Assembly (NCBI GenBank): GCA_030583785.1 | Contig: CP129475.1 | Location: forward strand, 914,209-978,208 | Direction of reading: 5' to 3' | Source: Candidatus Dojkabacteria bacterium | GTDB lineage: Bacteria; Patescibacteriota; Dojkabacteria; B142; OLB20 | DNA length: 64,000 bases | Part shown: one piece after another, positions 8,277 to 30,784 of the stretch | Position numbering within the stretch: the stretch's first letter is position 1 | Layout: every line of letters begins with the position of its first letter | Made by a program: the position numbers and the translations under genes | The notes under the pieces: model-generated | The model's database searches: none | Seen by the model: only the letters and a program-made list of their open reading frames with translations | What the model was told of the DNA's origin: nothing

Positions 8277-8317
8277 GATGATAAGTATAGATAAAAATCG
8301 ACCCACGAACTAAAACT

Positions 8318-12079: not shown

Positions 12080-12108
12080 TTGTGTTTTAGAATTTGTAGG
12101 TGTATAAT
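12080..12108 (+). promoter_or_regulatory. Candidate promoter of the higB operon (TTGTGT - 17 bp - TATAAT)
   Basis: -35 TTGTGT at 12080-12085 and a perfect -10 TATAAT at 12103-12108, about 40 bp upstream of the higB ATG. Confidence 0.45.
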
Positions 12109-12124
12109 TTCCCAAAATGGGAAA
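12108..12124. promoter_or_regulatory. Inverted repeat TTTCCCA-aaa-TGGGAAA overlapping the predicted transcription start; candidate antitoxin operator
   Basis: A perfect 7-bp inverted repeat with a 3-bp spacer sits immediately after the -10 element. Type II TA operons are typically autoregulated through such palindromes. Confidence 0.35.
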
Positions 12125-12150
12125 AGATAATCAATCATTAAAACTGAATA

Positions 12151-13658: not shown

Positions 13659-13659
13659 A

Positions 13660-15288: not shown

Positions 15289-15386
15289 ATAGCAGTTTTA
15301 CTTACAGTATAAATTTTTGCGATAATGACATCAACAATTTAAGCGCCTAACCCCATAAATTTCGGTTTATGGGTATGGACATAAGA

Positions 15387-15521
15387 CCTTGCGAGTATAG
15401 ACGGTTCCATCCGTCCAGATTTGCTCGCAAGGCCTTCAGGGGAAACTCTGATGCTGGATTGGGTGGGACCATTTTTGTGGTTTCCCAGTCCAGCATCGCT
15501 AAACGTATTTTATTTTTTAGC
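15387..15521 (+). promoter_or_regulatory. Highly structured leader: three consecutive hairpins immediately upstream of the ATG at 15531
   Basis: Hairpin 1: ccttgcgag (15387-15395) pairs with ctcgcaagg (15424-15432), with a nested gacgg/ccgtc stem. Hairpin 2: gatgctggattggg (15450-15463) pairs with cccagtccagcatc (15484-15497). Hairpin 3: gctaaa (15498-15503) pairs with tttagc (15516-15521) across a U-rich loop. Confidence 0.35.
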
Positions 15522-15530
15522 AACTGGACT

Positions 15531-16394: not shown

Positions 16395-16458
16395 CTACGT
16401 TTTATCTTAAATTGAACAAACGTGTGGAACGCCATGTGAGCAGCGGCTATAATGTGCT

Positions 16459-16800
16459 ATGGCTAGACCAACTAAACTCGACCAAATAACAGTCAAAAAA
16501 CTCGAAGAGGCATTTGCCGTAGGAGCAACTGTACCAGAAGCCTGTTTTAATGCGGGTATTAGTAAACAGACATACTACAACTGGACGGGAGAAAACCCTG
16601 AGTTATTGGACCGTTTTGAAGCATTGCAACAATCACCGATTTTGAGGGCTAGGAAGGCGGTATATGAGGGATTGGCAAATGACCCACATTTCGCATTAAA
16701 GTTCCTTGAAAGGAAGCTCAAGGGCGAATTTGGAATAAATCCAAACATAGCCGACACTGGTCACGAAATAAATATTGTCATTAGGAGGAAGCAAAATTAA
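16459..16800 (+). CDS. Phage terminase small-subunit-like HTH protein
   Basis: 113 aa; MARPTKLDQITVKKLEEAFAVGATVPEACFNAGISKQTYYNW...ENPELLDRFEALQ...KFLERK resembles phage TerS-like HTH proteins (PTKYTPEL...ICEAxGISxxTxYxWxxxNPEFxxxxxxAR...WxLERR). Confidence 0.45.
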   Translation: MARPTKLDQITVKKLEEAFAVGATVPEACFNAGISKQTYYNWTGENPELLDRFEALQQSPILRARKAVYEGLANDPHFALKFLERKLKGEFGINPNIADTGHEINIVIRRKQN

Positions 16801-16804
16801 ATAA

Positions 16805-17743
16805 ATGGAAAAGCCCGACATATTAGTATTTCGTGAGAAACGCTGGTTCCAACAATTTATTGGCAAAGAGTATGTTATCTACCACCGCCCTTTAAGCAAA
16901 GGGCAATCCGAATTGCACAGAGAGCTGACAGCTAGCCATGCAATTATGAAATCTCGGCAGTCAGAGGACGGGGAAAAGGAAAAATTTGTTATCTACGAAA
17001 TATTCCCGCATGAATTCCATCAATACTGCCAAGCCGAAATCGACAAACTTAGTGAGTGTAGAAAATCACAGGCCATTCAGACAAAAGAATTATTAGACCT
17101 GCTTGCCGCTGACTTTATCCAACACCAAAACACTGCGCCACTGGTCAACGAAGAGATTCTAGGGAGTTACAAGGCTAACCCTAAATTCGCGGCGGATTCA
17201 CCTAGCAATAGCCGCCATCGATTGAAGTTTAACGCGACCATGCGTCAATTGGAGCTTCAAGGGTATTTTAGGATTACTAACTTCGAGCTAGACGTATTCG
17301 CGACAGAAAAACCACTATCGCCTGAAAAAGCCCATGAACTAGAAAAGAAACCCGACCACAAAACAAAAACCGACTATCTACCTGCCGCTTACAGCAACTA
17401 CAAAATTAAATATCTTAGAGAATTTTCCGAATACGTCAGAAATGGCTATGGGAAAGAAACTGTGGAAATAGAGTTTGACCCTGAAAGTGGAGAAATCTGG
17501 TATGACGGCAAAAGTCGAAGTGTCGTCGGCAAGACTAGCCATTCCTACAAAGTTATAGCCGAATTTGCACTAGGCAAAAGCAGTGTTGAGATTAAGCAAT
17601 TATTTCCTGTTCAAAACGATAGTGATTTTAGACATGAGCTTGCGAAAGAGGTACGCAGGAAGATGGGTTTGTCAGCACAGCAGTTGAGAAATAAAGATGG
17701 AAACTTTATTTTGCAAAATGTTAGCGTAGCACCTAAAAAGTAA
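16805..17743 (+). CDS. Hypothetical protein (312 aa)
   Basis: ORF lying 5 nt after the TerS-like gene. No motif was recognised. Confidence 0.45.
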   Translation: MEKPDILVFREKRWFQQFIGKEYVIYHRPLSKGQSELHRELTASHAIMKSRQSEDGEKEKFVIYEIFPHEFHQYCQAEIDKLSECRKSQAIQTKELLDLLAADFIQHQNTAPLVNEEILGSYKANPKFAADSPSNSRHRLKFNATMRQLELQGYFRITNFELDVFATEKPLSPEKAHELEKKPDHKTKTDYLPAAYSNYKIKYLREFSEYVRNGYGKETVEIEFDPESGEIWYDGKSRSVVGKTSHSYKVIAEFALGKSSVEIKQLFPVQNDSDFRHELAKEVRRKMGLSAQQLRNKDGNFILQNVSVAPKK

Positions 17744-17986
17744 TTAGTTCTATCCCTACTTTTTCCCGCTTTTTTCCTAAGAATCCTACTTGATAGTTGG
17801 GATAGTGATTATGTGGAAAACACAGATATAAACTACAACGGCGAACCAATACGAAACCTACCAGCACTAGTTAAGGCTGTCCAGGTGGAAACCGCTAAAC
17901 GCTCGAGGACCAAACCCACCAAGGCTCTTTCAAAAAAACATAAATATCGAATGAAAGACAAGCTCGGAGAATATATAATGTAGTTA

Positions 17987-19627
17987 ATGAATGATGAGAA
18001 CCCACTTGAACAAGCACAGTACAAAGAGGCATTACTAAAATACGCCCACGCTTACACGCTCAAAAAGCAGAAAAATAAAAGCGAGAAACAACTTTCCGAT
18101 TCTAAACGCTACTATGTTATCTACGCCCGCAAATCCACCGAGGATGATAAACGACAAGTGCAATCCATAGAGGACCAAATCGAACAATGTCAGAAGTTTG
18201 CTAAAAGGGAGAATTTAGAGGTAGTTGATATTGTCCAAGAAGACAAAAGTGCAAAAACCGCTGGTAGACGTCCGAAATTTGCGGCAATGTTGGAACGGTT
18301 AAGGAAAGGTGATTTATACAACAGTATCCTGGCATGGCATCCAGACCGTTTAGCGCGCAATATGAAGGAAAGTGGAGAGATACTGGACCTGCTCGATAAC
18401 GACATTATTGTCGACCTTAAATTTCCATCTTACTCATTCAACAATGATGCTGCGGGCAAAATGACTCTAAGTATTTTGTTCGCGATGGCAAAGGAATTTT
18501 CCGACAAGTTATCAGAGGATACGAAGCGCGGTATTCGTAAAAAGATTCGCGAAGGTAAATATTCAGGCACAGGCAAACGTGGTTATATGGTGAACAAGCA
18601 CGAATATTTTAGACCCGATGACAGCAACTTCGCAATATATCAAAAGGCATGGCAGGAATACAGTAGTGGCAAAACGCAAAGTGAAATTATCCGCGGCTTA
18701 AAGGAACAAGGTGAGAAAATTTCCACAAATGGTATGTCAGAATACTTCCAAGACCCTTTTGTAGCTGGCATTTATACTTACGGTGAGCAGGTAGTTGACC
18801 TCGAAAAAGTAGACCCTAAATTTACGCCTATGATAGGTCCCAAGGAGTTTTTAATGGCACAAAAGATAAACAGGCCTAATCCACGCGGTTGGTGCATGAA
18901 CGATGAATTCAAACCACTAAATGACCTAGTCTTGTGTGCTGATTGTGGCAACCCAATGATTGCTGGTTTGAGTGAAGGTAATCGTTATCGATACCTAAAC
19001 CTGACTTGTAGCAATCGGGCTTGTAAGGAGAAAAGGCGAGAGAAAAAGATTAAACCAGTATCCAACACCATACGCGCATTCGAGATAATCGACTTTGCCC
19101 GTAGAGTGTTTGATGAATTGCTAAATATTGACCAAGCTACTTACGACAAGGCCAAGAAAAAGTATTTCACCGAACGCAGTGCGGTCATTAAAGGATTGGT
19201 TGCAGAGTCTGCAAAGTTGAAAGCTAGCAAATCCAAACTCGAAACTAAGTCCTCCAAACTAAGCGACCAGATACTCGAAAAGCACAGTGAAGATGTCAAA
19301 CAAAAGTTCTCAGAGGAATTTACAAGCGTGCTTGCGCAGATTAGAAATATTGACGCAAGTTTAGTTACCTTGGAACAAAAAAAGCGGGATTTGGAATTTG
19401 AAATCGAAGATGAATTTCCTGACTTCAAGACGTTTCTGAACTTCTTTGAAAACATATCGGCCACAATAGAATCCACCGATAATGCCTATCTTGTCGACCA
19501 ACTAGTGAAATTGGTATTTCTGAACCTAACTGTAAGTGAGAAAAAGGTTGTTAAATATACCCTTCGCGAGCCTTTCAAAACCTATGAGAACCTGAATTTC
19601 CTTGTTGGGGTGGTTGACAGGACTTGA
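17987..19627 (+). CDS. Large serine recombinase (integrase)
   Basis: Resolvase catalytic domain YVIYARKSTEDDKRQVQSIEDQ with the nucleophile Ser. The 546-aa length and a Cys-rich recombinase/zinc-ribbon region (CADCGNPM...CSNRAC) fit a large serine recombinase. Its 3' end overlaps the tRNA-His 3' end. Confidence 0.85.
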   Translation: MNDENPLEQAQYKEALLKYAHAYTLKKQKNKSEKQLSDSKRYYVIYARKSTEDDKRQVQSIEDQIEQCQKFAKRENLEVVDIVQEDKSAKTAGRRPKFAAMLERLRKGDLYNSILAWHPDRLARNMKESGEILDLLDNDIIVDLKFPSYSFNNDAAGKMTLSILFAMAKEFSDKLSEDTKRGIRKKIREGKYSGTGKRGYMVNKHEYFRPDDSNFAIYQKAWQEYSSGKTQSEIIRGLKEQGEKISTNGMSEYFQDPFVAGIYTYGEQVVDLEKVDPKFTPMIGPKEFLMAQKINRPNPRGWCMNDEFKPLNDLVLCADCGNPMIAGLSEGNRYRYLNLTCSNRACKEKRREKKIKPVSNTIRAFEIIDFARRVFDELLNIDQATYDKAKKKYFTERSAVIKGLVAESAKLKASKSKLETKSSKLSDQILEKHSEDVKQKFSEEFTSVLAQIRNIDASLVTLEQKKRDLEFEIEDEFPDFKTFLNFFENISATIESTDNAYLVDQLVKLVFLNLTVSEKKVVKYTLREPFKTYENLNFLVGVVDRT

Positions 19628-19682
19628 ACCTGCGGCATCCAGTGCCACAAACTGGCGCTCTACCGACTGAGCTACAACCACC
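19605..19682 (-). tRNA. tRNA-His (anticodon GTG), CCA encoded
   Basis: Reverse complement GGTGGTTGTAGCTCAGTCGGTAGAGCGCCAGTTTGTGGCACTGGATGCCGCAGGTTCAAGTCCTGTCAACCACCCCA forms a cloverleaf. The anticodon loop is TTGTGGC (GTG), and the usual His-specific extra 5' G / C73 arrangement is present. Confidence 0.85.
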
Positions 19683-19829: not shown

Positions 19830-21260
19830 ATGGATAATCAAAAAGCAGATATTGGATTTATTGGACTGGCTGTAATGGGACAGAATCTGGTGCAAAATAT
19901 CGCCTCTAAAGGCTTCTCTGTCGCTGTCTATAATAGAACTGCTGCTATAACCAGAGAGTATATCGAAACTGTCGATTCTGAGAATATTTCTCCTGCTTAT
20001 TCCTTATCTGATTTATGTAATTCGATAAAATCACCAAAAAGGATCATGCTTATGGTCAAAGCAGGAGAAGCTGTTGACGAAGTTATCGATCAATTACTGC
20101 CAAATCTTCACAAAGGAGATGCATTGTTAGATATGGGTAATTCCAATTACAAAGATACGCAAAGACGAACGCACCAATTAACCGAAAAGGGGATTCTCTA
20201 TTCTGGTGTAGGTGTTTCAGGCGGAGAAGAAGGTGCCTTAAATGGTCCGAGTATTATGTTTGGAGGCTCTAAAGAGTTGTTTACTGAAGTTGAAGCGCTT
20301 ATAAAAAGTATTTCTGCTATGGATTTTCAGGGAGCTGCTACACTTACCTATGTTGGGCCGGACGGAGCAGGTCACTATGCCAAGATGGTGCATAACGGAA
20401 TCGAATATGCCATGATGCAGGCGATTTCTGAGGCGTATTTTCTGCTTAGAGATGTTTTCCACAAAGATCCCTCAGAAATCGCCGCAGTATTCGCTAATCT
20501 AAATGAAGGTCCTCTCAATTCCTATCTCATACAAATAACTGCTGATGTGCTTAACAAGCGAGACGATCTTACCGAAGGATTCTTAATAGATAAGATTCTC
20601 GATGTCGCGGAACAAAAAGGAACCGGCTCTTGGGTTTCTATCTCTGCCCTAGAGAATGGAACTGCACTAAATATTCTCACCGAAGCGGTCTTTGCACGCA
20701 GTCTGTCTGCAGACAAACAAACAAGGATCAAACTTGCTGAATTATCAACCAAGAACGAGCTTGAAAAAAATTCACGAGACAAAAACTTGCCAGATGACAA
20801 GCAACTGCATAAACTCGTCGAGGATTCGTTGCTTGTTTCGTTTTATTTGGCCTTTATCCAAGGATTTCACTTGTTAGCTAAGGCTGAAGCAGAAAACAAC
20901 TGGCAGATTAATCTTTCTGAACTGACAAGAATCTGGCAAGGGGGGTGCATCATTAGGGCAGAGCTTCTTAAAGACCTAAAAAGATATACAGAGACAAAGG
21001 CTGTACTTATTGAAAATGAAGAATTGTTTAAGATGATTAACGGTAAAATTCCGTCACTTCGAGAACTGGCACTAATGGCGACATCGCATGCTTTGCCCTT
21101 GCCGGTAATGCAAAACAGTTTGCTTTATTTCGACAGCATGATAAATCCCAATTTACCTACCAATTTAATCCAGGGTCTGCGAGATTATTTTGGAGCGCAT
21201 ACATATAAACGAACTGACAGAGAAGGAATCTTCCATACAAACTGGGACGATCAGAACTAA
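19830..21260 (+). CDS. gnd: 6-phosphogluconate dehydrogenase (decarboxylating)
   Basis: The N-terminal Rossmann segment IGFIGLAVMGQNLVQNIASKGFSVAVYNRT is present, with the Gnd catalytic and C-terminal domains over the full 476-aa length. Confidence 0.9.
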   Translation: MDNQKADIGFIGLAVMGQNLVQNIASKGFSVAVYNRTAAITREYIETVDSENISPAYSLSDLCNSIKSPKRIMLMVKAGEAVDEVIDQLLPNLHKGDALLDMGNSNYKDTQRRTHQLTEKGILYSGVGVSGGEEGALNGPSIMFGGSKELFTEVEALIKSISAMDFQGAATLTYVGPDGAGHYAKMVHNGIEYAMMQAISEAYFLLRDVFHKDPSEIAAVFANLNEGPLNSYLIQITADVLNKRDDLTEGFLIDKILDVAEQKGTGSWVSISALENGTALNILTEAVFARSLSADKQTRIKLAELSTKNELEKNSRDKNLPDDKQLHKLVEDSLLVSFYLAFIQGFHLLAKAEAENNWQINLSELTRIWQGGCIIRAELLKDLKRYTETKAVLIENEELFKMINGKIPSLRELALMATSHALPLPVMQNSLLYFDSMINPNLPTNLIQGLRDYFGAHTYKRTDREGIFHTNWDDQN

Positions 21261-21282
21261 AGGCTGCGGATATGTTCAAGCA
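21255..21282. repeat. Left copy of a 28-bp perfect direct repeat (aactaaaggctgcggatatgttcaagca) flanking the CRISPR-Cas cassette
   Basis: Identical 28-mer at 21255-21282 and 29750-29777. The left copy contains the gnd codon AAC plus stop TAA and abuts the truncated terminal CRISPR repeat. Confidence 0.75.
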
Positions 21283-23611
21283 ACAGTAGAAATCTCTTAT
21301 AAGGAATAAGGTTATTCATAAGCTGAAAAAGGTCGCAGAAATCTACAACAGTAGAAACCTCTTATAAGGAATAAGGAGGAGAGGTATCAGTCGCTCAAGT
21401 CATCTACAACAGTAGAAATCTCTTATAAGGAATAAGAATCTGGCAGTTGCGTTAGACAATACGATCTACAACAGTAGAAATCTCTTATAAGGAATAAGAA
21501 TAAATTATTAATTACCCACCATGAGAATCTACAACAGTAGAAATCTCTTATAAGGAATAAGTTTTAATTATTAGCGAATAAGTATGGATCTACAACAGTA
21601 GAAATCTCTTATAAGGAATAAGCTAGTAAATTTCCTGATATATTTTACAGCATCTACAACAGTAGAAATCTCTTATAAGGAATAAGTCATATTTATAGAA
21701 TACACACTTATTATCTACAACAGTAGAAATCTCTTATAAGGAATAAGCTCGTAACAGATATGTTGACAGCTCTAATCTACAACAGTAGAAATCTCTTATA
21801 AGGAATAAGTCCATAAATCAAATTACTAACATCTCTATCTACAACAGTAGAAATCTCTTATAAGGAATAAGATGTTGTTCGCCATAGTTTTCTAAAATCT
21901 ACAACAGTAGAAATCTCTTATAAGGAATAAGAGTAGACAAGTTTCGTGACGATGCAGAGTATCTACAACAGTAGAAATCTCTTATAAGGAATAAGTGCAA
22001 ACTTCAATTTTCACTTCAACATTTATCTACAACAGTAGAAATCTCTTATAAGGAATAAGATATATATATATTGAGGTTTATTCTTTAAATCTACAACAGT
22101 AGAAATCTCTTATAAGGAATAAGTACTTGGATTTTTATAGTTAACGCATTTATCTACAACAGTAGAAATCTCTTATAAGGAATAAGTGATGAGATAGCAA
22201 TGTTTGCAGGAATTATCTACAACAGTAGAAATCTCTTATAAGGAATAAGGCTACATTCTTATTCATTCTCAGAATTATCTACAACAGTAGAAATCTCTTA
22301 TAAGGAATAAGAAATCAAATAGTTTTTGGTATCTGTTTATCTACAACAGTAGAAATCTCTTATAAGGAATAAGTTCGCGACGATGCAGAGGCAAAAATTA
22401 TCTACAACAGTAGAAATCTCTTATAAGGAATAAGACAAGTATATCAGACCGACGGGACAAAATCTACAACAGTAGAAATCTCTTATAAGGAATAAGATTC
22501 TGCCAGTACCTTCTCAATTAATCCATCTACAACAGTAGAAATCTCTTATAAGGAATAAGACTGGAGAGTTTACTGGACAGGTTAATCTACAACAGTAGAA
22601 ATCTCTTATAAGGAATAAGATCACAGACACAGTTTCGCTTTAGTATCTACAACAGTAGAAATCTCTTATAAGGAATAAGATCACTGTATATAGAGCTGTT
22701 ACTGAATCTACAACAGTAGAAATCTCTTATAAGGAATAAGCGTATTTATACACCGACGGTTCCTTGGATCTACAACAGTAGAAATCTCTTATAAGGAATA
22801 AGTGCATGGTTTTTTCCTAAATAACTAAAATCTACAACAGTAGAAATCTCTTATAAGGAATAAGATTGGAAGATGTTTCAGCAAGATTTCGAATCTACAA
22901 CAGTAGAAATCTCTTATAAGGAATAAGGCTATTGGTAAAAAAGCTTAATCATAATATCTACAACAGTAGAAATCTCTTATAAGGAATAAGTTAGGCGTGT
23001 GTTATCCACATTTGAAATCTACAACAGTAGAAATCTCTTATAAGGAATAAGAGCAATAGACTGGGGAGGATATTCCTAATCTACAACAGTAGAAATCTCT
23101 TATAAGGAATAAGCATTATTTCTATCAATTTCAATGTTTATATCTACAACAGTAGAAATCTCTTATAAGGAATAAGATTCTGTTGCCGTCTTCAAGTTCG
23201 GCAAATCTACAACAGTAGAAATCTCTTATAAGGAATAAGCTTATTATTATTTAGCCATTGAATTTGATCTACAACAGTAGAAATCTCTTATAAGGAATAA
23301 GTGGAATATATTTTATCCTCTTATATGATCTACAACAGTAGAAATCTCTTATAAGGAATAAGAATGGATATATTAATTAATAACTAACGGATCTACAACA
23401 GTAGAAATCTCTTATAAGGAATAAGAGAAATAAAAGAGGGAGCAATCTTAATCTACAACAGTAGAAATCTCTTATAAGGAATAAGTTAGAGTTTATACGA
23501 AGTTTGCACATCGAATCTACAACAGTAGAAATCTCTTATAAGGAATAAGTCATACTAGTCTTGTTAATCCTAACAAATCTACAACAGTAGAAATCTCTTA
23601 TAAGGAATAAG
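21281..23611 (-). CRISPR. Type V-A CRISPR array: 38 repeats (one truncated terminal, 37 full) of 35 nt, 37 spacers of 26-29 nt
   Basis: Plus-strand repeat is ATCTACAACAGTAGAAATCTCTTATAAGGAATAAG. Its reverse complement ends ...AGAUUUCUACUGUUGUAGAU, the Cas12a crRNA 5' handle and pseudoknot. The leader and cas genes lie on the high-coordinate side, so transcription is on the minus strand. The distal repeat (21339-21373) carries one SNP, and the terminal repeat (21281-21310) lacks 5 nt. Confidence 0.95.
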
Positions 23612-23809
23612 AGCCATTTTCTTGATATAAAAGGAGATTCGATACAACCGATATTTACCGGGACGGATTCATATCATATTAAGAATAATGGGAAAAGCCT
23701 TAATTATCAACCTTATTGACGAATAGTATGGCTCGTCTGCTTAAAAATTAAGACTGAGGTTTGTTTTCCTTAGAAACGATTTATACCGTTAACTTGTCAA
23801 AGAGCTATT
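23612..23809 (-). promoter_or_regulatory. CRISPR leader (AT-rich, about 198 bp) between cas2 and the first repeat
   Basis: AT-rich non-coding stretch in the canonical position cas2-leader-array. It contains TTGATA and TATTCT/TAATAT hexamers in the transcript orientation. Confidence 0.55.
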
Positions 23810-24091
23810 CTAATCAAAGTATACCACATCCTCCTCTTCGTAATGTGCAGCACCATACTTGCGGATCTTCTTTTGGCAAGCTTCACATATCTCCATTACA
23901 AGGATATGATCTGTCAAATCAGCTTTTGTCATATGCTTTTTTTCGATACCCTCTATAACCAATCTTAATAGTCGTTTGCTATTGCGTATCTCGTAAACAG
24001 AGTACTGCAAAGCATGACCAAACTTTTTAAGGAACTTAGAGAATCTGGTTCTCCTTTTATTATCAGCGATATCGTATGTGACTAGAATCAT
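23810..24091 (-). CDS. cas2: CRISPR-associated endoribonuclease Cas2
   Basis: 93 aa with N-terminus MILVTYDIADNKRRTRFSKFL (Cas2 signature). It overlaps cas1 by 4 nt. Confidence 0.9.
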   Translation of the reverse strand: MILVTYDIADNKRRTRFSKFLKKFGHALQYSVYEIRNSKRLLRLVIEGIEKKHMTKADLTDHILVMEICEACQKKIRKYGAAHYEEEDVVYFD

Positions 24092-25041
24092 TTGTATATA
24101 TATTGTTTAAAATGATATCTGTTTGGATCCATTATATGTTTATAAAAATTCTTAATATATGTATAAATATCTTCACGATTTCTCATTAATTCTTCAAAGA
24201 ACATATTAGTATATTTTCTATGGAAATCTTTCTTGATTAAGAATTCTCCATCTTTGAAATAGAAATCTTTCTCATTAATCTGACCAAGGTTCCAAGCTTT
24301 TACGAGCTTATAATCAATAATTGGGCGTAAAGGTTCCATTACATCGCAAGACAATGATTTCCTAATGAAAAATGGTTTATGATAGTAACCCATATAAGTA
24401 TCAAAGCCAAACAGTCTTAGTAACGAGTCAACATAGTTAAATAAATATGTGTATCCAATATCTAACAACAAGTTTGGAATATCCTCCTTTGTTCTGGGTG
24501 TTCTTCGATACCACTTCAGATTGTCAAACATCCGATTGAAATAACCCTTAGCCGCATTTCCTTCGAATCCAAGCATTGATTCTGTACTTTTTGCATTTGT
24601 TATGCCGTTGATTGAAGCAATATCTGTAATAACAATTCCTGTTCTTGTCTTTTGGAGAGCATTGTATTGATTCTGGACCTTATTGAGGACCAAGTTTCTA
24701 CTAATCTCTAAAGCAAATGAATCATTATGGTGATACTGTTTCTTTCTAAGGATGTAATTCCCTTCTGCTGCTGATGTGATTTCGGCATAAGTTTTTAAAG
24801 AGTCATTAAGCAGAAAAAGAGATATCCCATGTTCTCTCATCTGTTTAATCAATACACTAGTCAAACTTAATTCGCCGATATAATAGATTGCAAATATTAA
24901 GTGTGTTGAAACTTGATGAGTGAATCTATCATCTCTATATAGGCAGATATTGCTGTTCCTAAATTTGAGTTTGTTATCTAACCCTGGTCTATTACCAACA
25001 TGCAGTATCTTTTTTTCTTTGAAATCATTTAACTGTAGCAT
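24088..25041 (-). CDS. cas1: CRISPR-associated integrase Cas1
   Basis: 317 aa with Cas1 motifs, including the conserved His/Glu region (GFDTYMGYYHK...FFIRKSLSCDVMEPLRPIID). Confidence 0.9.
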   Translation of the reverse strand: MLQLNDFKEKKILHVGNRPGLDNKLKFRNSNICLYRDDRFTHQVSTHLIFAIYYIGELSLTSVLIKQMREHGISLFLLNDSLKTYAEITSAAEGNYILRKKQYHHNDSFALEISRNLVLNKVQNQYNALQKTRTGIVITDIASINGITNAKSTESMLGFEGNAAKGYFNRMFDNLKWYRRTPRTKEDIPNLLLDIGYTYLFNYVDSLLRLFGFDTYMGYYHKPFFIRKSLSCDVMEPLRPIIDYKLVKAWNLGQINEKDFYFKDGEFLIKKDFHRKYTNMFFEELMRNREDIYTYIKNFYKHIMDPNRYHFKQYIYK

Positions 25042-25589
25042 GTAGCCTTGTCACATAATGTAATGTAAATACAGTTCGAACATTTATTTGCTGAAACTGG
25101 TTTCGTCAACTGTGAAGGGTTATATTGTAGTATCGATTTCGTTAACAATCTCAAACTTACCTGTTCATATGCTGTCGGCAAAGGGATTGGATACCGTTTA
25201 TTGTCTATTAGTGAGTGGATGCACATTGACTTAACTTTATAACCCATTTCGGTTAAACAGACATATTGGGCATGCAGTTGGAGAATATATCCTGCGTAGA
25301 TCTTCTTCACTTTCCGTTTCCTTTCGACCAGAAGACCGGTAGATTTGTCGAAGATGTCAATCTTTCCAATTAAGTTATAGGTCTCACTATATATTGCTGT
25401 ACTCTTAAGTATGTTCTTTCTCGAGGAATACTTTTTTGTGTCTACTGCTTCGTGAGCGATTGTACCAAGTAACTGTGGAGTGTCCTGATATAAAGACTTG
25501 TCGAAAGATTCAAATATGGCGTGCAAATATAAAGAATAGGGGCAAAAGATGAAATCATTAAGTTTAGATATCTGTATAGCTCTTACCAT
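25029..25589 (-). CDS. cas4: CRISPR-associated exonuclease Cas4 (RecB-like nuclease, 4Fe-4S)
   Basis: An N-terminal Cys (FIFCPYSLYL), GTIAHE, GKIDIFD and a C-terminal CxxCxxxxxC cluster (CSNCIYITLC) are present. The 186-aa size is typical for type V-A Cas4. Confidence 0.85.
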   Translation of the reverse strand: MVRAIQISKLNDFIFCPYSLYLHAIFESFDKSLYQDTPQLLGTIAHEAVDTKKYSSRKNILKSTAIYSETYNLIGKIDIFDKSTGLLVERKRKVKKIYAGYILQLHAQYVCLTEMGYKVKSMCIHSLIDNKRYPIPLPTAYEQVSLRLLTKSILQYNPSQLTKPVSANKCSNCIYITLCDKATCYS

Positions 25590-25662
25590 ACAGATATTAT
25601 ACTATAAGACACTATTATTCCGAAGCCTATAGTTGATATGTTTTTATGGAACTATTTCTGAA

Positions 25663-28600
25663 TTATTCTCTTGATGCAAAATCATCCCATTCAAGATTTG
25701 AGATATACAAATCATTCCAACTTGGTGTTGCCGACTGACCATTAACTTGCATGAAACGTTTTACTTTTCTAATCATTACAACCCCTTTGCGTGCAATATT
25801 ATAAGCACCATTTTCATCGCCATTCTTTGGTAAATGCTTCCCAAATACTTCAGCCTTTCTACTGTCAAAGAAGGGTTCAACAGGCGAGAGTATGAAATCG
25901 TTCTCATCACCATCGGAATCGACTTTAGTGTTTCTTATTTGACAAATAAGTCCGAAATAGTAGATTAAGCTACGGAATAATTTAGAGTTATTCTTGTCTT
26001 CTTCATCAATGTCTTTAATTTGCTTTAGTAGGTCCTTGTTTATATCTACTTCATATTCTTCTAATACCTCTTTAATGCTTATAGTGATATTGTCATAGTG
26101 TTCGTATGCACCTTTATTATTATTCAGTTTTTTATCCCATTTGTATCGTTCAACATTTGAGCAGACAGTCCAGATATGTTTCTTTGGATACTCTTTAGCT
26201 TTAGGATAGAATTTTTTTAGATCATATGTAAATTTGAAATGGTCTTTTGTGTCATCGTACTCAATACTATCAAAATTTAATAGATCGATCTTTGCCATTT
26301 TTGCATTGGTATTTTTTAAATACAGATTTGGCCTCCAACCGGTAAGCGGATCAATCTTAGAAGTATACGCTGCTTGAGTATAAAAAATAATACCTGTTTG
26401 TTTACCTATTTCGTCAAAACTCCTAAATGGTGAGGTAAGTTGATATGCTTTGTGAATACCGCCTAACTCAGAGCGGTTATTATGAGTCTTGTCAGCTAGG
26501 TAATTAAGTTTCTCGATTAATCCTTTTTCCAGTTGTTGGTAAGTACTTTTTTCAAATCCACTTCGAATTTGTTTAAACCTCATATTCAAATCTTCCATAA
26601 CGATTATTGCTCCATGCTTAATTGCTAGGTCAGATATTTTTTTGACTAACAACGAAACATAACCTCGTTTTAGATCCTTTATCTTTTGAATCTCTTGCCA
26701 ATCTTTACGATCTCTTTCTCTATCGACTGCCCGGTCTGATAATAGTTTCTTGAAGTCAATGCCTTTGAGGTTATTTAATGATCCACTTTCAATTACCTCT
26801 CCATCTTGTGTAATCACTGAATAGTAGGCCAAGTGCTTTTCGCCTCTGTCAACACCAATGATGTTTATTGAATCATTACTTGCTAAGAGCTTACACACTA
26901 GATCGTTTACCCTAGTAACTCCCTTGTTGATCCGATTAAGTGTGATTGGAACATGGAAAAAGTACTTATTTTCTGAATACCTTGTGTTTATTACTCTCTT
27001 ATTTCCTTTTTTATCTACCCGCTCGCCCAGCTTGTCTTTGTCGGTCTTCGGTCTAAAGAACAGCTCTGCTTGACCATTTAGTTTAAAACGGTAATTATTA
27101 TCAAGATTCTCTTGTGAGAATAATTCTTCAAAGTAAATTGTGTGTAAGTTCTTCGTTCCTCTGCTCTCTTTTGAGAAATCTTTATTGTAAATTTGAAATA
27201 AATATAATTCACCTTTACTATTGCTTTCAATTATTTGACTCTCGGCAAAGGGTGTAAACCAAACCTTGTATCCTTTCTGGTTTAATTCTTTGTAGAATTC
27301 GTCAACGCTGTCATATTTTTCGGAATCTTTTATCAAAGAATAGTCAAAATATGCTGTACTTGGATAGCATTCGAGGAACTGTTTGCAGAAATCTATCCAT
27401 TTCTTTACAGCCTCTCTATGCAAAGTTTCATTTCCTCCTAACTTTAAGTACTCTTTCTGGAAGACTTTTATATAGTATTTTTCATCGTCACTATTAACTT
27501 CACCTCTTAAAACAGATCTTGATAGATCCTCTTTAAGATAAATACGGTTGTTTATCTCGTATATTTCTTTTGTGATTTTTAATGGATTAAGTAGATCACC
27601 TATAGAAGAAGTTTTCGTTAGAACATAATCATCATCAGAGTTTTGAAAGTGATTCGCAACCTCTTTTAATTGAGTTGTTGTCTTTGGTATGTTTGTTACT
27701 ACATCCTTCACAAATTTGTAATTCAGCAGTTCATAATGATTCGGTTCTACTTCAGCTTCTTGAGTATCTTTTGCCTTAGTAAATAATTTGTTGTAACCTT
27801 TCTTCATTATCCCTAGAAAGAACTCGTGATTTCTTCTAAGAATTACAGTTGAGTATGATGCCACCTTATTCTTATCCCAGCCATCAGCTAGAGTTGGATT
27901 GTCGAAGTTAAGCTTCCACTTTTCTTCGCTATATGGTTTTCTTGTTAAATAATTTCTAACCTTGTTATATGGTTGGACAATTTCCTCGTATGCGTTTGCG
28001 TAAAATTCCAGATAACCAATATCTGGTTCTGTATAGAATGTATCTAACATACTGTCGTATTCAGTTAACCAATTGCGTTTTTTTTCTAATGCAAAGTACA
28101 TCGCCATCTGATAGATATGTAAAACTGAATCCAGATAGTCTTTAATAATTTTTTTTGTATCTTTATTAATTCTAAATTCCTCTAGAAGTTTTACAAAAAC
28201 TGGTTCACTCTTACTGTAATCAATTTGATTTTCTTGATCTCGCTGTTTGTTAACAATCAATGAGTCAAACTCATACTTAAAGATGTCAACAAACTGCAAC
28301 CAATTTGGTTGTCCTGCTTGTGTTGCGGAAGTACCACTCTTTTCGTAGTACCGATCTTTCCATATTTCGTTCTCATCACCAATTGCAGTTAGAGCAGTTT
28401 TAATATCTTTTAGGGTAATGAACTGTGGAAAACGATATGTTTCTCCAACCTTATTGATACCTTCCACTGCATTTTCTTTCAGTGTATTGTAGAGCGCTTC
28501 TTCTAGTTGGCTTTTGTCGTTGATCCATCTATGAAGAATAGTATTGAAAGCTTCTTTGCTAATTAAGATTCCACCGATGTCATATTCTTCAGTACTCCTA

Positions 28601-29673
28601 AAGAATTTATCGAGTAGTTTGTACAGATTCTTAATTCTTATCTTTGCAGATTCATGAAAAGTTAGGAGCATATCAAATAGCTCGTTTTCGTTGTCAAGCT
28701 CATCAATAAATTTCTCCTTTTCACTAAGTAGTTGTTTATCGAGTTTCTTCAAAAATGATATCTTTTTATCACGATTGTTTTGTCGATATTCATTAATAAC
28801 TTCGTTTACACCGATAACTTTTTCACCATTTTCTAGTGTTTTCCCACCAATTAGCTCGTTATATGTATTCAAACCCTCTTGTGTTAGGCATCGATTATAG
28901 TAAACGATACTTATTAATTGATTTGCAGCGATCTTAAGTTCTCGGTGCGGTTCTAAGATACTTCCAACATCTTGTGACTCAAATGTGAGGATATTCTCGA
29001 TGAAACGATCAAGATTATGATCAATAATTCTTGTAGCTAGAGCAGTACTCGTTCCGTCAGATTTATAAAAATTCTCTCTTGTTGCAAAGAATTTTTTAAA
29101 ATATCCTGTAAAACCTTTCCAACCATCGAAGATTGAAATAATCTCTCCCGTATCTTTATTAATTAACTTTGTTTCTTGATCGTCTCCATAACTTTCTTTA
29201 AGTATCTGGAAGACTTTTTCTTCAAAGAGGATATTAAGATCTGTTTTTTTTAGCTTGAGGTGGGTATATCTTTTTTCTGCCCATTTCTTACCAGTATTAT
29301 TGAATGACGCTATTACTTGAGATCTTAATTCCTGCCTTGCTTTTTTTAATTTATCGAATAGCTTTTTATCTTTTTTATTAGTTTTGTATTCTTTATAGGT
29401 TTTGAGATACTCTTCCAGCCCATCTATTTCGAAGTTGTTCAGTGATTCTTGAATAAATTCTCTATGTAGCTTGTCAAAGTAAGGTTTGGTTCTCTCATAG
29501 GCAAGCTTTCGATTTTTATCAATCTCTACAATGTTATTCTCCATTAACATGTTTTCTGTATTACCAACAGGTTTTAATTCAAATCTTAGTGTTTTTGAAA
29601 GTGGATATAGATTAGTAAAGTCACTGAAGGGGTGCTTAGACATATTAGTATCGTGAAGAATATTGCTTCCCAT
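25663..29673 (-). CDS. cas12a: Cas12a (Cpf1) type V-A effector nuclease
   Basis: The N-terminus ...MSKHPFSDFTNLYPLSKTLRFELKPVG is the Cas12a hallmark. RuvC-I (IGVDRGEKHLAY), RuvC-II (IVMEDLNMRFKQ), RuvC-III (GDENGAYNIARKG) and the Nuc region (ILSPVEPFFDSR) are all present. The likely true start is the internal Met at 29643, which would give 1326 aa. Confidence 0.95.
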   Translation of the reverse strand: MGSNILHDTNMSKHPFSDFTNLYPLSKTLRFELKPVGNTENMLMENNIVEIDKNRKLAYERTKPYFDKLHREFIQESLNNFEIDGLEEYLKTYKEYKTNKKDKKLFDKLKKARQELRSQVIASFNNTGKKWAEKRYTHLKLKKTDLNILFEEKVFQILKESYGDDQETKLINKDTGEIISIFDGWKGFTGYFKKFFATRENFYKSDGTSTALATRIIDHNLDRFIENILTFESQDVGSILEPHRELKIAANQLISIVYYNRCLTQEGLNTYNELIGGKTLENGEKVIGVNEVINEYRQNNRDKKISFLKKLDKQLLSEKEKFIDELDNENELFDMLLTFHESAKIRIKNLYKLLDKFFRSTEEYDIGGILISKEAFNTILHRWINDKSQLEEALYNTLKENAVEGINKVGETYRFPQFITLKDIKTALTAIGDENEIWKDRYYEKSGTSATQAGQPNWLQFVDIFKYEFDSLIVNKQRDQENQIDYSKSEPVFVKLLEEFRINKDTKKIIKDYLDSVLHIYQMAMYFALEKKRNWLTEYDSMLDTFYTEPDIGYLEFYANAYEEIVQPYNKVRNYLTRKPYSEEKWKLNFDNPTLADGWDKNKVASYSTVILRRNHEFFLGIMKKGYNKLFTKAKDTQEAEVEPNHYELLNYKFVKDVVTNIPKTTTQLKEVANHFQNSDDDYVLTKTSSIGDLLNPLKITKEIYEINNRIYLKEDLSRSVLRGEVNSDDEKYYIKVFQKEYLKLGGNETLHREAVKKWIDFCKQFLECYPSTAYFDYSLIKDSEKYDSVDEFYKELNQKGYKVWFTPFAESQIIESNSKGELYLFQIYNKDFSKESRGTKNLHTIYFEELFSQENLDNNYRFKLNGQAELFFRPKTDKDKLGERVDKKGNKRVINTRYSENKYFFHVPITLNRINKGVTRVNDLVCKLLASNDSINIIGVDRGEKHLAYYSVITQDGEVIESGSLNNLKGIDFKKLLSDRAVDRERDRKDWQEIQKIKDLKRGYVSLLVKKISDLAIKHGAIIVMEDLNMRFKQIRSGFEKSTYQQLEKGLIEKLNYLADKTHNNRSELGGIHKAYQLTSPFRSFDEIGKQTGIIFYTQAAYTSKIDPLTGWRPNLYLKNTNAKMAKIDLLNFDSIEYDDTKDHFKFTYDLKKFYPKAKEYPKKHIWTVCSNVERYKWDKKLNNNKGAYEHYDNITISIKEVLEEYEVDINKDLLKQIKDIDEEDKNNSKLFRSLIYYFGLICQIRNTKVDSDGDENDFILSPVEPFFDSRKAEVFGKHLPKNGDENGAYNIARKGVVMIRKVKRFMQVNGQSATPSWNDLYISNLEWDDFASRE

Positions 29674-29749
29674 TATATCATGGGAAAAAATATATAAACA
29701 AACTAAAAAATGTTTAGGTTGGTGAGGGTAAGAATCACATTCTTAGGTC

Positions 29750-29777
29750 AACTAAAGGCTGCGGATATGTTCAAGCA
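29750..29777. repeat. Right copy of the 28-bp direct repeat; encodes the C-terminal MLEHIRSL-stop of the VanW-like gene on the minus strand
   Basis: Identical to 21255-21282. Its reverse complement reads ATG CTT GAA CAT ATC CGC AGC CTT TAG. Confidence 0.75.
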
Positions 29778-30651
29778 TAGATTGTTTATATTCCTCAATC
29801 ATTTCCTGTGGGTCTGTGTACGATATTAATCGAATGTCTTTGTTTGCCATAATATATGCTCCGATGCTTTCGCCTTTGTAGGCGCTAGGATGATCGTTTC
29901 TATAAGTAAGCACGATTCTAATCTTTAGACCTTCAAGCTCTTTAATGTTTTTTATGGCGGGATTTAGTGTAAAGCCATAGTCTTGTCCTCCTCCTGAACT
30001 GATTTTTATGACTGTGTAGCCATAGCCTCGATTACTATCTTTGTAAGTATGCGACCAGTCGGCGTGAGGAGCTCGATCTCCACGGGCAAAAACAAACATA
30101 GGTATACCGTATCTTTCCTTAAACTGATTATTGGCATTGTCCATCATTTGTCCGAGCGCACTTGTACTCCAGCACAAACCGGAACCGAAGAAATAGCCGT
30201 TTTGCGGTCTTACATATCCGTTTCTTGGATTTAAAGAAAGATAGCCGTCTGCGATGACCCGAATTCTATTACCAGGAGCTAAGGTAGGCATGCGATTTAA
30301 TTCTCTGACGCCTGCTGCGGCATTTAAGTATTTCCCCCAGTAGTAGTCATTTTTGTGCAGTGGAAGTTCGGTGAAGGCAAACTGGTAGCTCAAAGAAGGA
30401 TCAATGCTTTCGCCGGCAACAGCAGGTAGGTTGTCGTCACTTGGAAATGCGTCTTCTGCAAAGATGATTCCGTTATCGCTATAGACGGCAAAGTTGTCTT
30501 TATAGGAGTCTTTCCCTTGATAAAACTGTGAGGCGATTCTTTGTCCAAGATTGAAAGTCGGACCCTGTTGAAACAATTTAATTCGTGCAGATACCGACAC
30601 AGGCTGTGCCAACAGTAAAGTAATTACTAACAGGAATTTCAGGATTTTCAT
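29752..30651 (-). CDS. Exported VanW-like domain protein
   Basis: Signal peptide MKILKFLLVITLLLAQPVSVSA. NGYFFGSGLCWSTSALGQ resembles the VanW GGGxCQxSTTLY motif. Confidence 0.45.
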   Translation of the reverse strand: MKILKFLLVITLLLAQPVSVSARIKLFQQGPTFNLGQRIASQFYQGKDSYKDNFAVYSDNGIIFAEDAFPSDDNLPAVAGESIDPSLSYQFAFTELPLHKNDYYWGKYLNAAAGVRELNRMPTLAPGNRIRVIADGYLSLNPRNGYVRPQNGYFFGSGLCWSTSALGQMMDNANNQFKERYGIPMFVFARGDRAPHADWSHTYKDSNRGYGYTVIKISSGGGQDYGFTLNPAIKNIKELEGLKIRIVLTYRNDHPSAYKGESIGAYIMANKDIRLISYTDPQEMIEEYKQSMLEHIRSL

Positions 30652-30707: not shown

Positions 30708-30784
30708 TGGTGCGCTGAGAAGGACTCGAACCTTCAACCTACTGCTTAGAAGGCAGTTGCTCTATCCATTGAGCTATCAGCGCC
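30708..30784 (-). tRNA. tRNA-Arg (anticodon TCT), CCA encoded
   Basis: Reverse complement GGCGCTGATAGCTCAATGGATAGAGCAACTGCCTTCTAAGCAGTAGGTTGAAGGTTCGAGTCCTTCTCAGCGCACCA, with anticodon loop CTTCTAA. Confidence 0.85.

What the first reader, a model, noticed from the sequence alone, without database searches (positions are those of the whole stretch)
21255..29777. Complete type V-A (Cas12a) CRISPR-Cas locus in canonical order, all on the minus strand
cas12a-cas4-cas1-cas2-leader-array is contiguous and compact, with 4- and 13-nt gene overlaps. Cas12a keeps all three RuvC acidic residues and the Nuc arginine region. The 35-nt repeat encodes the exact Cas12a pseudoknot handle (UCUACUGUUGUAGAU). 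With 37 spacers, the array indicates an active adaptation history. The genomic context (hexokinase, CarS-like gene, giant LamG protein, reduced-looking proteins) hints at a Patescibacteria-like host, where Cas12a orthologues are phylogenetically informative.
Basis: partly seen in the sequence, partly recalled or inferred. Interest (0 to 1): 0.6.

Follow-up and report, generated by a model that had tools for sequence, protein, structure and literature searches.

The report
Textbook Cas12a CRISPR locus, already annotated
This is a complete, intact-looking Cas12a-type CRISPR immune system in a tiny-genome Dojkabacteria (Patescibacteria) bacterium; it is an ordinary example whose effector protein is already correctly named in GenBank, with one modest oddity in the part of the enzyme that normally trims its guide RNAs.

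Summary
On the minus strand lie cas12a (25663-29673, 1336 aa), cas4, cas1 and cas2, with 13- and 4-nt overlaps. A 198-nt leader follows, then an array of 38 repeats and 37 unique spacers (21276-23611).

Cas12a scores 805 bits on TIGR04330 (cutoff 300). It keeps RuvC D942/E1027/D1286, Nuc R1247 and both PAM-reading lysines. The repeat folds into the UCUAC-UGUU-GUAGA handle.

The identical protein is GenBank WKZ27757.1, named Cas12a from Candidatus Dojkabacteria. Cas12a in this phylum has been known since 2015, so this is a known kind and a catalogued member.

No protospacer was found in any database searched. One internal clue supports a TTTV PAM: spacers 20 and 27 overlap, and spacer 20 places TTTG upstream of protospacer 27.

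There is one deviation. The canonical pre-crRNA RNase residues (FnCas12a H843/K852/K869) have no clear counterparts. The His is missing in a whole CPR-dominated "short-loop" clade. The K869 column is I895 here.

The same clade shows different nucleotides flanking the predicted crRNA cut site. Self-processing is therefore inferred, not shown.

An adjacent 11.5-kb strain-variable defence island sits at tRNA-His.

The parts
25663..29673 (-). cas12a (cpf1), 1336 aa, identical to GenBank WKZ27757.1. Key residues: RuvC D942, E1027, D1286; Nuc R1247; PAM-reading K603 and K664 (= AsCas12a K548 and K607).
   Evidence: five Pfam Cas12a domains; TIGR04330 804.8 bits against cutoff 300; alignments to solved Cas12a chains; residue positions; identical NCBI protein.
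26980..27054 (-). Codons for Cas12a residues 874-898, the WED-III loop that carries the pre-crRNA RNase centre in characterised Cas12a. Here the loop is short. The canonical His is absent (deleted, or D880), the FnCas12a K869 column is I895, and the neighbouring residues are N896 and T897.
   Evidence: (hhalign places a 16-residue gap over the T-H-P-A-N..N-K-N segment).
25029..25589 (-). cas4, 186 aa. It has a RecB-type D..ExK motif, one N-terminal Cys and a C-terminal CxxCx5C cluster.
   Evidence: PF01930; TIGR04328 type V Cas4, 221 bits against cutoff 70; sequence.
24088..25041 (-). cas1, 317 aa. It overlaps cas4 by 13 nt and cas2 by 4 nt.
   Evidence: PF01867, 166 bits; TIGR00287 137.6 against 71.7; the type V model TIGR04329 scores 292.1, just under its 300 cutoff.
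23810..24091 (-). cas2, 93 aa.
   Evidence: PF09827; TIGR01573.
23612..23809 (-). Leader, 198 nt, 33% GC. It holds one weak sigma-70-like match (TTGATA-17-TATTCT, 23710-23682). It is identical in independent assemblies.
   Evidence: The promoter is a consensus match only.
21276..23611 (-). CRISPR array: 38 repeats of 35 nt and 37 unique spacers of 25-30 nt, transcribed in the same direction as the cas genes. The degenerate repeats lie at the end far from the leader.
21276..21375 (-). Trailer end of the array. Repeat 37 (21341-21375) carries A>G at handle position -18. Spacer 37 follows. The terminal repeat 38 (21276-21310) is truncated after 30 nt and lacks the 3' arm of the stem.
22374..22399 (-). 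Spacer 20. It overlaps the target of spacer 27 (21932-21960) and supplies the 4 nt (TTTG) that would precede protospacer 27.
   Evidence: shared CTCTGCATCGTC[G/A]CGAA, same orientation. The PAM reading is an inference.

Best explanation
This is a complete, canonical type V-A CRISPR-Cas system in a Candidatus Dojkabacteria (Patescibacteria) chromosome.

Proposed mechanism:
1. The array is transcribed from the leader next to cas2 (inferred).
2. Each repeat's last ~19 nt (GAUUUCUACUGUUGUAGAU) forms the Cas12a 5' handle, and the spacer lies 3' of it. No tracrRNA is involved.
3. Cas12a bound to the crRNA recognises a T-rich 5' PAM, most likely TTTV. This is inferred from the conserved PAM lysines K603/K664 and one internal spacer-overlap clue.
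4. It cuts DNA with its RuvC/Nuc centre (D942, E1027, D1286, R1247).
5. Cas4-Cas1-Cas2 add new spacers at the leader end.

Shown here: gene content, order, domain architecture, catalytic DNase residues, repeat structure and host lineage. Inferred: expression, PAM, targets and activity.

The least secure step is pre-crRNA maturation. The protein belongs to a CPR-dominated 'short-loop' Cas12a group that lacks the canonical RNase histidine. I consider it most likely that the cut between -20 and -19 is still made by a rewired WED site.
For: - Cas12a: TIGR04330 804.8 bits (cutoff 300), five Cas12a Pfam domains, PADLOC Cas12a 1148 bits. PDB Cas12a chains match at E 1e-131 to 1e-174 over the full length.
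- DNase residues: RuvC and Nuc residues align to FnCas12a D917/E1006/D1255/R1218 and are invariant in 62 homologues.
- PAM residues: AsCas12a K548 and K607 are conserved as K603 and K664.
- Adaptation module: type V Cas4 (TIGR04328), Cas1 and Cas2 are intact with overlapping reading frames.
- Array: 36 identical repeats with degenerate ones only at the trailer end, and 37 unique spacers.
- Repeat fold: UCUAC-UGUU-GUAGA stem-loop, with 0.71 of the ensemble in that structure.
- No tracrRNA: there is no anti-repeat elsewhere in the window.
- Real sequence: the same protein is 100% identical in 9 contigs from independent samples, so it is not an assembly artefact.
- Shared architecture: the same layout, with the array about 2 kb downstream on the same strand, is seen in dozens of relatives.
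- PAM clue: spacer 20 places TTTG upstream of protospacer 27.
Against: - No protospacer was found. The searches covered all 37 spacers by BLAST against 50,697 phage records, 8 exact scans of IMG/VR and 2 of JGI metagenomes. Targets and PAM therefore remain unverified.
- There are no expression or small-RNA data.
- The three FnCas12a RNase residues (H843 acid, K852, K869 base; roles from PMC11127173) lack clear counterparts. The His is deleted or replaced by D880, and K869 aligns with I895.
- The K/H residues that most clade members have just before the conserved R-Y are N896 and T897 here.
Confidence: 0.9

Rival explanations
1. The locus is a working type V-A system, but this Cas12a has lost self-processing of pre-crRNA. 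Guides would then be matured by host RNases or used with long 5' extensions. That makes it a natural RNase-dead Cas12a.
For: - Profile-profile alignment puts a 16-residue deletion over the canonical T-H-P-A-N..N-K-N segment, which holds FnCas12a H843 and K852. It aligns K869 with I895.
- Pairwise alignments to solved structures agree that no His is present between residues 870 and 906.
- In about 55 short-loop relatives, the triplet before R-Y is mostly D-H-K, N-H-K, N-K-K or K-N-K. Only the query (I-N-T) and L045 (T-N-S) have no basic or His residue there.
Against: - The short loop is shared by 54 of 74 compared Cas12a fragments, and many of those loci have large arrays of up to 51 repeats. 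The clade as a whole is clearly under selection with this loop.
- The 18-nt handle is perfectly conserved.
- Basic residues remain close by (K888, K889, K892, R893) and could rebuild the site.
- The nucleotides flanking the predicted cut co-vary with loop type. That fits a remodelled active site better than a lost one.
Confidence: 0.15
2. The locus is an inactive relic: a fossil array with cas genes no longer used for defence.
For: No spacer matched any sequence searched. The last two repeats are degenerate.
Against: - All four cas ORFs are full length with their catalytic motifs.
- Thirty-six repeats are identical.
- The protein is 100% conserved across independent samples.
- Degenerate terminal repeats are normal at the trailer end.
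- Viruses of Patescibacteria are poorly represented in databases, so a lack of matches is expected.
Confidence: 0.05
3. The effector is a different type V protein, such as an RNA-triggered Cas12a2-like effector or Cas12e, misread as Cas12a.
For: A weak secondary NCBIfam hit to Cas12e/CasX (53 bits) over the RuvC region.
Against: - That hit is far below its cutoff of 200 and covers only the shared RuvC fold.
- The full-length matches to TIGR04330, to PADLOC Cas12a models and to solved Cas12a chains include the REC1, REC2, PI and NUC domains.
Confidence: 0.01

Closest known systems
FnCas12a (Francisella novicida U112 Cpf1), the reference type V-A system (PDB 5ng6, 5mga)
   Same: - Same gene order: cas12a-cas4-cas1-cas2-array.
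- Same domain set.
- RuvC D917/E1006/D1255 and Nuc R1218 are conserved as D942/E1027/D1286/R1247.
- The last 18 nt of the repeat (AUUUCUACUGUUGUAGAU) match the handle seen in canonical loci and, from my own knowledge, that of the F. novicida repeat.
   Different: - The relationship is distant: E 1e-146 by phmmer, and non-CPR relatives are about 31-34% identical.
- The WED RNase loop is about 14-16 residues shorter. It lacks the H843 equivalent, and the K869 column is Ile.
- Handle position -19 is G, not A.
- The repeat is 35 nt rather than 36 nt.
AsCas12a (Acidaminococcus sp., PDB 5b43, 8sfh)
   Same: It is the best match over the WED-II/PI region. The long PI domain has I-P-K-x-T-T-Q, and K548 and K607 are conserved as K603 and K664. 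This predicts a TTTV-type PAM.
   Different: AsCas12a H800 aligns with E884 or D880, depending on the alignment. K860 aligns with I895. AsCas12a also has a roughly 45-residue insertion in this loop that is absent here.
ReChb Cas12a (PDB 8qwd)
   Same: It is the best-scoring solved structure overall (E 1.4e-174, 586 bits), aligned over nearly the full length.
   Different: It has the canonical T-I-V-H-K-A-N..K-N-K..I-I-K-D-R-R-Y RNase loop.
CPR/Patescibacteria Cas12a, including PeCpf1 (Peregrinibacteria GW2011_GWA2_33_10 = L063) and Roizmanbacteria GW2011_GWA2_37_7 (L023). Cas12a was reported in Dojkabacteria (WS6), Parcubacteria and Roizmanbacteria by Zetsche et al. 2015, as cited in PMC6509639.
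   Same: Same short-loop WED architecture, same locus layout and same type of host. The query is 38-54% identical to these proteins. The repeats use GA or AA at positions -19/-18.
   Different: The nearest relative is only 54% identical (L005/P0002). Most clade members keep Lys and/or His in the three residues before the conserved R-Y. The query has I-N-T there.

Membership tests
Type V-A CRISPR-Cas (Cas12a/Cpf1) | A single large effector homologous to Cas12a over its full length (REC1, REC2, WED, PI, RuvC, Nuc). | tested here: met
   TIGR04330 equivalog 804.8 bits against cutoff 300. Pfam REC1, REC2, PI, RuvC_1 and NUC all score above their cutoffs. PADLOC Cas12a scores 1148 bits. PDB Cas12a chains match at E 1e-131 to 1e-174.
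Type V-A CRISPR-Cas (Cas12a/Cpf1) | An intact RuvC D-E-D triad and the Nuc-domain arginine for DNA cleavage. | tested here: met
   D942, E1027, D1286 and R1247 align to FnCas12a D917, E1006, D1255 and R1218. They are invariant in 62 homologues.
Type V-A CRISPR-Cas (Cas12a/Cpf1) | A crRNA-only guide. The repeat ends in the UCUAC-N(3-5)-GUAGAU stem-loop handle, the spacer lies 3' of the repeat, and there is no tracrRNA. | tested here: met
   The repeat ends in ...GAUUUCUACUGUUGUAGAU. The MFE fold gives the 5-bp stem with a UGUU loop. No repeat or anti-repeat copy with at least 24/35 or 16/19 matches exists elsewhere in the 64-kb window.
Type V-A CRISPR-Cas (Cas12a/Cpf1) | A cas4-cas1-cas2 adaptation module between the effector gene and the array. 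| tested here: met
   Cas4 TIGR04328 221 bits (cutoff 70). Cas1 TIGR00287 137.6 bits (cutoff 71.7), with the type V-specific TIGR04329 at 292.1, just under its 300 cutoff. Cas2 TIGR01573 47.7 bits (cutoff 24.5).
Type V-A CRISPR-Cas (Cas12a/Cpf1) | A T-rich PAM on the 5' side of the protospacer. | tested here: inconclusive
   The PAM-contacting lysines are conserved (K603, K664). Overlapping spacers 20 and 27 imply TTTG upstream of protospacer 27. No real protospacer was found in any collection.
Type V-A CRISPR-Cas (Cas12a/Cpf1) | Characteristic of studied members, but not required for family membership: a WED-domain RNase centre (FnCas12a H843/K852/K869) that matures pre-crRNA. | tested here: not met
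   At sequence level the His is absent (a 16-residue gap in hhalign, or D880 in the AsCas12a-anchored alignment). K869 aligns with I895. K852 may correspond to K888 or K889. The same short loop occurs in accepted family members such as PeCpf1 (L063), so this does not exclude membership. The activity itself cannot be tested with these tools.
Type V-A CRISPR-Cas (Cas12a/Cpf1) | PAM-dependent staggered dsDNA cleavage guided by crRNA. | not testable with these tools
   This needs biochemistry or an in vivo interference assay.
Short-loop (CPR-dominated) Cas12a subgroup. This is my own operational grouping, not a named family. | A WED-III loop of 17-28 residues between F-[YF]-R and R-[YF], without the T-H-P-A-N motif. 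Repeat position -19 is not fixed as A. | tested here: met
   The query loop is 20 residues plus I-N-T. Its repeat has G at -19 and A at -20, the commonest state in this group. In an NJ tree of the 300-aa region, the query sits among Patescibacteria sequences, while the canonical-loop sequences form one separate clade.
Other type V effectors (Cas12e/CasX and similar) | Passing the respective equivalog model. | tested here: not met
   NF045604 Cas12e scores 53.2 bits against a cutoff of 200, over the RuvC region only.

The most novel reading that the evidence does not exclude
The CPR-dominated short-loop Cas12a lineage may have a differently built pre-crRNA processing centre. It has no canonical general-acid His, and the nucleotides at -20/-19 are altered. 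This particular enzyme lacks even the Lys/His residues its clade usually keeps next to the conserved R-Y. It could therefore be a natural Cas12a that does not self-process its array, or one that does so with a new catalytic constellation (for example K888/K889/K892/R893).
Probability: 0.15. Interest if true: 0.5.

Novelty: already known. Interest (0 to 1): 0.2.

Why it matters
As it stands, this adds one more annotated Cas12a locus from a Patescibacteria genome. It is useful as a data point, because CRISPR is rare in these reduced genomes, and as a divergent orthologue only 54% identical to its nearest relative. It is not a discovery.

The one aspect with some wider value concerns the RNase loop. 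A large, mostly uncharacterised branch of Cas12a lacks the histidine that every biochemical study treats as the general acid for crRNA maturation. The repeat nucleotides at the cut site differ in step with this.

If that branch processes RNA with different residues, or not at all, it would bear on how array multiplexing with Cas12a can be engineered and on how the RNase site evolved.

Tried and rejected
- Protospacer search, all negative. I ran all 37 spacers, concatenated, by blastn against the INPHARED phage collection. I ran eight exact scans of IMG/VR with spacers 1, 2, 7, 14, 17, 19, 35 and a degenerate spacer-20/27 pattern. I ran two scans of JGI metagenomes. All caps for these scans are now used.
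- Self-targeting. No spacer matches the rest of the window with 5 or fewer mismatches.
- Cross-matching against relatives' loci gave only chance-level hits of 11-17 nt. This covered the window's spacers against 80 relatives' loci, and 745 relatives' spacers against the window.
- Spacer turnover between strains could not be assessed. The short-read Logan contigs collapse the array to a single hybrid repeat.
- tracrRNA-like anti-repeat: none in the window.
I did not pursue a fragment model, because the tool returns no coordinates from which active-site geometry could be read.
- A possible 'PI-domain insertion' relative to AsCas12a turned out to be shared by about 17 of 62 clade members. It simply marks the long-PI subtype, so I dropped it as a peculiarity.
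- Literature searches for RNase-site variation in CPR Cas12a found nothing in the held library.
- The upstream 299-aa ORF has a signal peptide and no Pfam, NCBIfam or PADLOC hit. I treated it as unrelated to the CRISPR system.
Full report
**1. What is in the sequence**

The ORF list and the minus-strand read-out show four co-directional genes:
- a 1336-aa ORF at 25663-29673
- a 186-aa ORF at 25029-25589
- a 317-aa ORF at 24088-25041
- a 93-aa ORF at 23810-24091

After a 198-nt spacer region (23612-23809) comes a repeat array. A pattern search with the 35-nt unit CTTATTCCTTATAAGAGATTTCTACTGTTGTAGAT finds 38 copies between 21276 and 23611.
- Copies 1-36 are identical.
- Copy 37 has one A>G change.
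- Copy 38 matches for 30 nt and then diverges.
- The 37 intervening spacers are 25-30 nt long and all different.

Tandem Repeats Finder independently reports period 62 and 37.5 copies. The array ends 15 nt from the stop codon of a convergent 6-phosphogluconate dehydrogenase gene (19830-21260). The finding's start coordinate therefore slightly overshoots. Its end coordinate reaches 26 nt into an unrelated upstream ORF.

**2. Identity of the genes**

The large protein is Cas12a by several tests.
- It matches all five Pfam Cas12a domains (REC1, REC2, PI, RuvC_1, NUC).
- It passes the NCBIfam equivalog model TIGR04330 at 804.8 bits against a cutoff of 300.
- It hits PADLOC Cas12a models at up to 1148 bits.
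- Against solved structures, every one of the 26 hits is a Cas12a. The best is 8qwd 'ReChb' at E 1.4e-174, followed by AsCas12a, FnCas12a, MbCas12a and LbCas12a entries.

The other three proteins are a type V Cas4 (TIGR04328, 221 bits), Cas1 and Cas2.
- Cas1 scores 137.6 bits on TIGR00287. It scores 292 on the type V model, just below that model's cutoff of 300.
- The Cas4 sequence shows the D..ExK nuclease motif and the four cysteines.
- Cas1 shows the H...D.ME.P motif.

**3. Catalytic and recognition residues**

I counted along the HMMER alignment to FnCas12a chain 5mga, whose numbering is native.
- FnCas12a D917, E1006, D1255 and R1218 correspond to D942, E1027, D1286 and R1247.
- These four are invariant in an alignment of 62 homologues. 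I confirmed them by position.

In the alignment to AsCas12a chain 8sfh (native numbering), the PAM-reading K548 and K607 correspond to K603 and K664. The query has the long, As-like PI domain, shared by about 17 of 62 clade members.

The DNA-cutting machinery and the T-rich-PAM readout are therefore conserved at sequence level.

**4. The repeat and the guide RNA**

As RNA, the repeat folds with 71% of the ensemble in one structure. That structure has a 3' hairpin, UCUAC-UGUU-GUAGA followed by U, which is the Cas12a handle. It also has a small extra 5' hairpin (CUUAU/AUAAG), which would be removed on maturation.

By analogy with FnCas12a, the cut should fall between A(-20) and G(-19). In FnCas12a, cleavage four nucleotides upstream of the stem leaves a 19-nt handle (established knowledge).

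No other copy or complement of the repeat occurs in the window. This is consistent with a tracrRNA-free system.

The degenerate repeats lie at the end far from cas2. This fixes the leader at 23612-23809 and the transcription direction as that of the cas genes. Only a weak promoter-like match lies in the leader.

The A>G change in repeat 37 falls at handle position -18. From published AsCas12a structures (my knowledge), this position takes part in the pseudoknot. The oldest spacer may therefore be poorly used.

**5. Host and prior knowledge**

The database search returned the identical 1336-aa protein. It is GenBank WKZ27757.1, 'MAG: type V CRISPR-associated protein Cas12a/Cpf1 [Candidatus Dojkabacteria bacterium]', on a 1,172,464-bp contig.

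Fragments at 90% identity or more were deposited as hypothetical proteins of candidate division WS6 bacterium OLB21. The same gene, 100% identical, occurs in nine Logan contigs from several sequencing runs.

The next-nearest protein is only 54% identical. In one-genome-per-species GTDB data, the relatives at 38-54% identity are almost all Patescibacteria MAGs. They include Peribacteria, Pacebacteria, Moraniibacteriota, WWE3, Dojkabacteria, Gracilibacteria, Saccharibacteria and Roizmanbacteria. Bacteroidales, Clostridia and other non-CPR Cas12a are 31-34% identical.

A published study states that Cas12a systems in Dojkabacteria (WS6), Parcubacteria and Roizmanbacteria genomes were recognised by Zetsche et al. 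2015 (PMC6509639).

The host guess was therefore right. Both the kind of system and this very protein are already in the public record.

**6. Targets and PAM**

No protospacer was found.
- A blastn of all 37 spacers against 50,697 phage records gave nothing.
- Eight exact-match scans of IMG/VR gave nothing.
- Two scans of JGI metagenomes gave nothing.
- No spacer matches the rest of the window with up to five mismatches.

One internal clue exists. Spacers 20 (AATTTTTGCCTCTGCATCGTCGCGAA) and 27 (ACTCTGCATCGTCACGAAACTTGTCTACT) share CTCTGCATCGTC[G/A]CGAA in the same orientation. They evidently derive from variants of one target.

In that register, the four bases preceding protospacer 27 are TTTG in spacer 20, which is a TTTV PAM. 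This is an inference from two non-identical variants, not a measurement.

**7.

In FnCas12a, pre-crRNA cleavage uses H843 (acid), K852 and K869 (base) in the WED domain (PMC11127173).

In the query, the segment between F-F-R(874) and R(898)-Y is PKTDKDKLGERVDKKGNKRVINT. It contains no histidine. The alignments agree on the following.
- Pairwise alignments to solved structures place the canonical His either in a gap or opposite D880 or E884. They place K869 (AsCas12a K860) opposite I895.
- MAFFT with reference fragments gives a deletion of about 14 residues. The ReChb, Mb and As fragments were taken from the tool alignments.
- A profile-profile alignment of 54 short-loop against 20 canonical-loop sequences gives a 16-residue deletion covering T-H-P-A-N...N-K-N (probability 100).
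- If one instead anchors on the shared [KR]-L-G-E motif of AsCas12a, K809 may correspond to K889.

The short loop is not peculiar to this genome.
- All 54 non-canonical fragments have it, including PeCpf1 (L063) and the Roizmanbacteria protein (L023).
- In a neighbour-joining tree of this 300-aa region, the canonical-loop sequences form a single clade apart from them.

What is peculiar here is the triplet before R-Y. The clade mostly has D-H-K, N-H-K, N-K-K or K-N-K. The query has I-N-T. Only one other sequence (L045, T-N-S) likewise lacks any Lys, Arg or His there.

**8. A co-variation that bears on the mechanism**

I extracted the dominant repeat from each related locus.
- Position -19 is A in 16 of 16 canonical-loop loci.
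- In 36 short-loop loci it is G (17), A (16), U (2) or C (1).
- Position -20 is U in 11 of 16 canonical loci but in only 2 of 36 short-loop loci, where A dominates.

Fisher tests give p about 1e-4 and 4e-6. They ignore shared ancestry and should be read as descriptive.

The 18 nt from -18 to -1 stay essentially the same in both groups. The two nucleotides flanking the predicted scissile phosphate thus change together with the protein loop that should cut there.

I read this as favouring a remodelled, still functional processing site in the clade. This particular protein remains an open case. No paper in the held library addresses the point.

**9. Surroundings**

The cas-array block has 32.6% GC against about 38.5% in the flanks. 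It lies between tRNA-Arg (30708-30783) and tRNA-His (19606-19681).

Comparison with the Logan contigs shows that window 8055-19605 is an 11.55-kb insertion, absent from otherwise 99.8-100% identical strains.
- It abuts the 3' end of tRNA-His.
- It is bounded by an 8-bp repeat, TGGGGTGG.
- It ends with a 546-aa large serine recombinase.
- It carries an Mrr-type type IV restriction enzyme, an MmeI-like type IIG restriction-modification enzyme, PD-Lambda-2 B and C components, and a cll-like protein.

The CRISPR locus therefore sits next to a mobile, strain-variable defence island.

**10. Verdict**

This is a standard type V-A locus of a kind long known in this phylum, and its effector is already correctly annotated in GenBank. 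The novelty class is 'already known' and interest is low.

The only lead worth a specialist's time is the non-canonical RNase loop of the CPR-type Cas12a branch and this protein's extreme version of it. That can be settled with a simple in vitro processing assay.

Noticed in passing
window 8055-19605: An 11.55-kb insertion relative to near-identical strains (L001, L002). It is bounded by the 8-bp repeat TGGGGTGG, abuts the 3' end of tRNA-His (19606-19681, minus strand), and ends with a large serine recombinase (17987-19627). It carries an Mrr-like type IV REase, an MmeI-like type IIG RM enzyme, PD-Lambda-2 B/C and a cll-like protein. It is a mobile defence island right next to the CRISPR locus. 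Contig L003 breaks exactly at the junction, which suggests both states coexist in a sample.
   Followed up: partly
window 15344-15472 (+): An Rfam LOOT RNA (RF03000) hit at 49.9 bits against a gathering score of 46.4. It lies inside the defence island and overlaps the start of an unannotated 341-aa ORF (15369-16394).
   Followed up: no
related loci L005-L084, and window 26980-27054: There is a family-wide dichotomy in Cas12a. Canonical-loop proteins (T-H-P-A-N..N-K-N..I-K-D-[KR]-R-[YF]) always have A at repeat position -19 and mostly U at -20. Short-loop, mostly Patescibacteria proteins lack the His and have G, A, U or C at -19 and mostly A at -20. The association is not corrected for phylogeny.
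   Followed up: partly
window 22374-22399 and 21932-21960: Spacers 20 and 27 come from overlapping positions of two variants of the same target, with 2 differences in the overlap. This points to repeated acquisition against an evolving invader. The overlap implies a TTTG PAM for protospacer 27.
   Followed up: yes
L001-L004 (Logan contigs), about 7150-7190: Short-read assemblies of the same strain collapse the 2.3-kb array into a single hybrid repeat, joining the leader-side start of the repeat to the trailer-side truncated end. Such contigs would make the locus look almost array-less.
   Followed up: yes
window 29752-30651 (-) and 30708-30783 (-): A 299-aa ORF with a clear N-terminal signal peptide and no Pfam, NCBIfam or PADLOC hit lies directly upstream of cas12a. 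A tRNA-Arg lies upstream of it. The low-GC cas block (32.6% against about 38.5%) is thus bracketed by two tRNA genes.
   Followed up: partly
window 21276-23611, each repeat, first 15 nt: The 5' part of every repeat (CUUAUUCCUUAUAAG) can form its own 5-bp hairpin, upstream of the predicted processing site. Its function, if any, is unknown.
   Followed up: no
protein cluster of P0001 (P0121-P0123): In the 2016 draft genome of candidate division WS6 bacterium OLB21, the same Cas12a (90% identity or more) is split into fragments of 125, 135 and 343 aa annotated as hypothetical proteins. This is presumably due to frameshifts in that assembly.
   Followed up: no
window 41326-47442 (-): A 2038-aa protein with seven Laminin_G_3 domains plus DUF2341. 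It has a sub-threshold resemblance to TafC fimbrial proteins (193.7 bits against a cutoff of 410). It may be a large surface or adhesion protein, typical of episymbiotic Patescibacteria.
   Followed up: no
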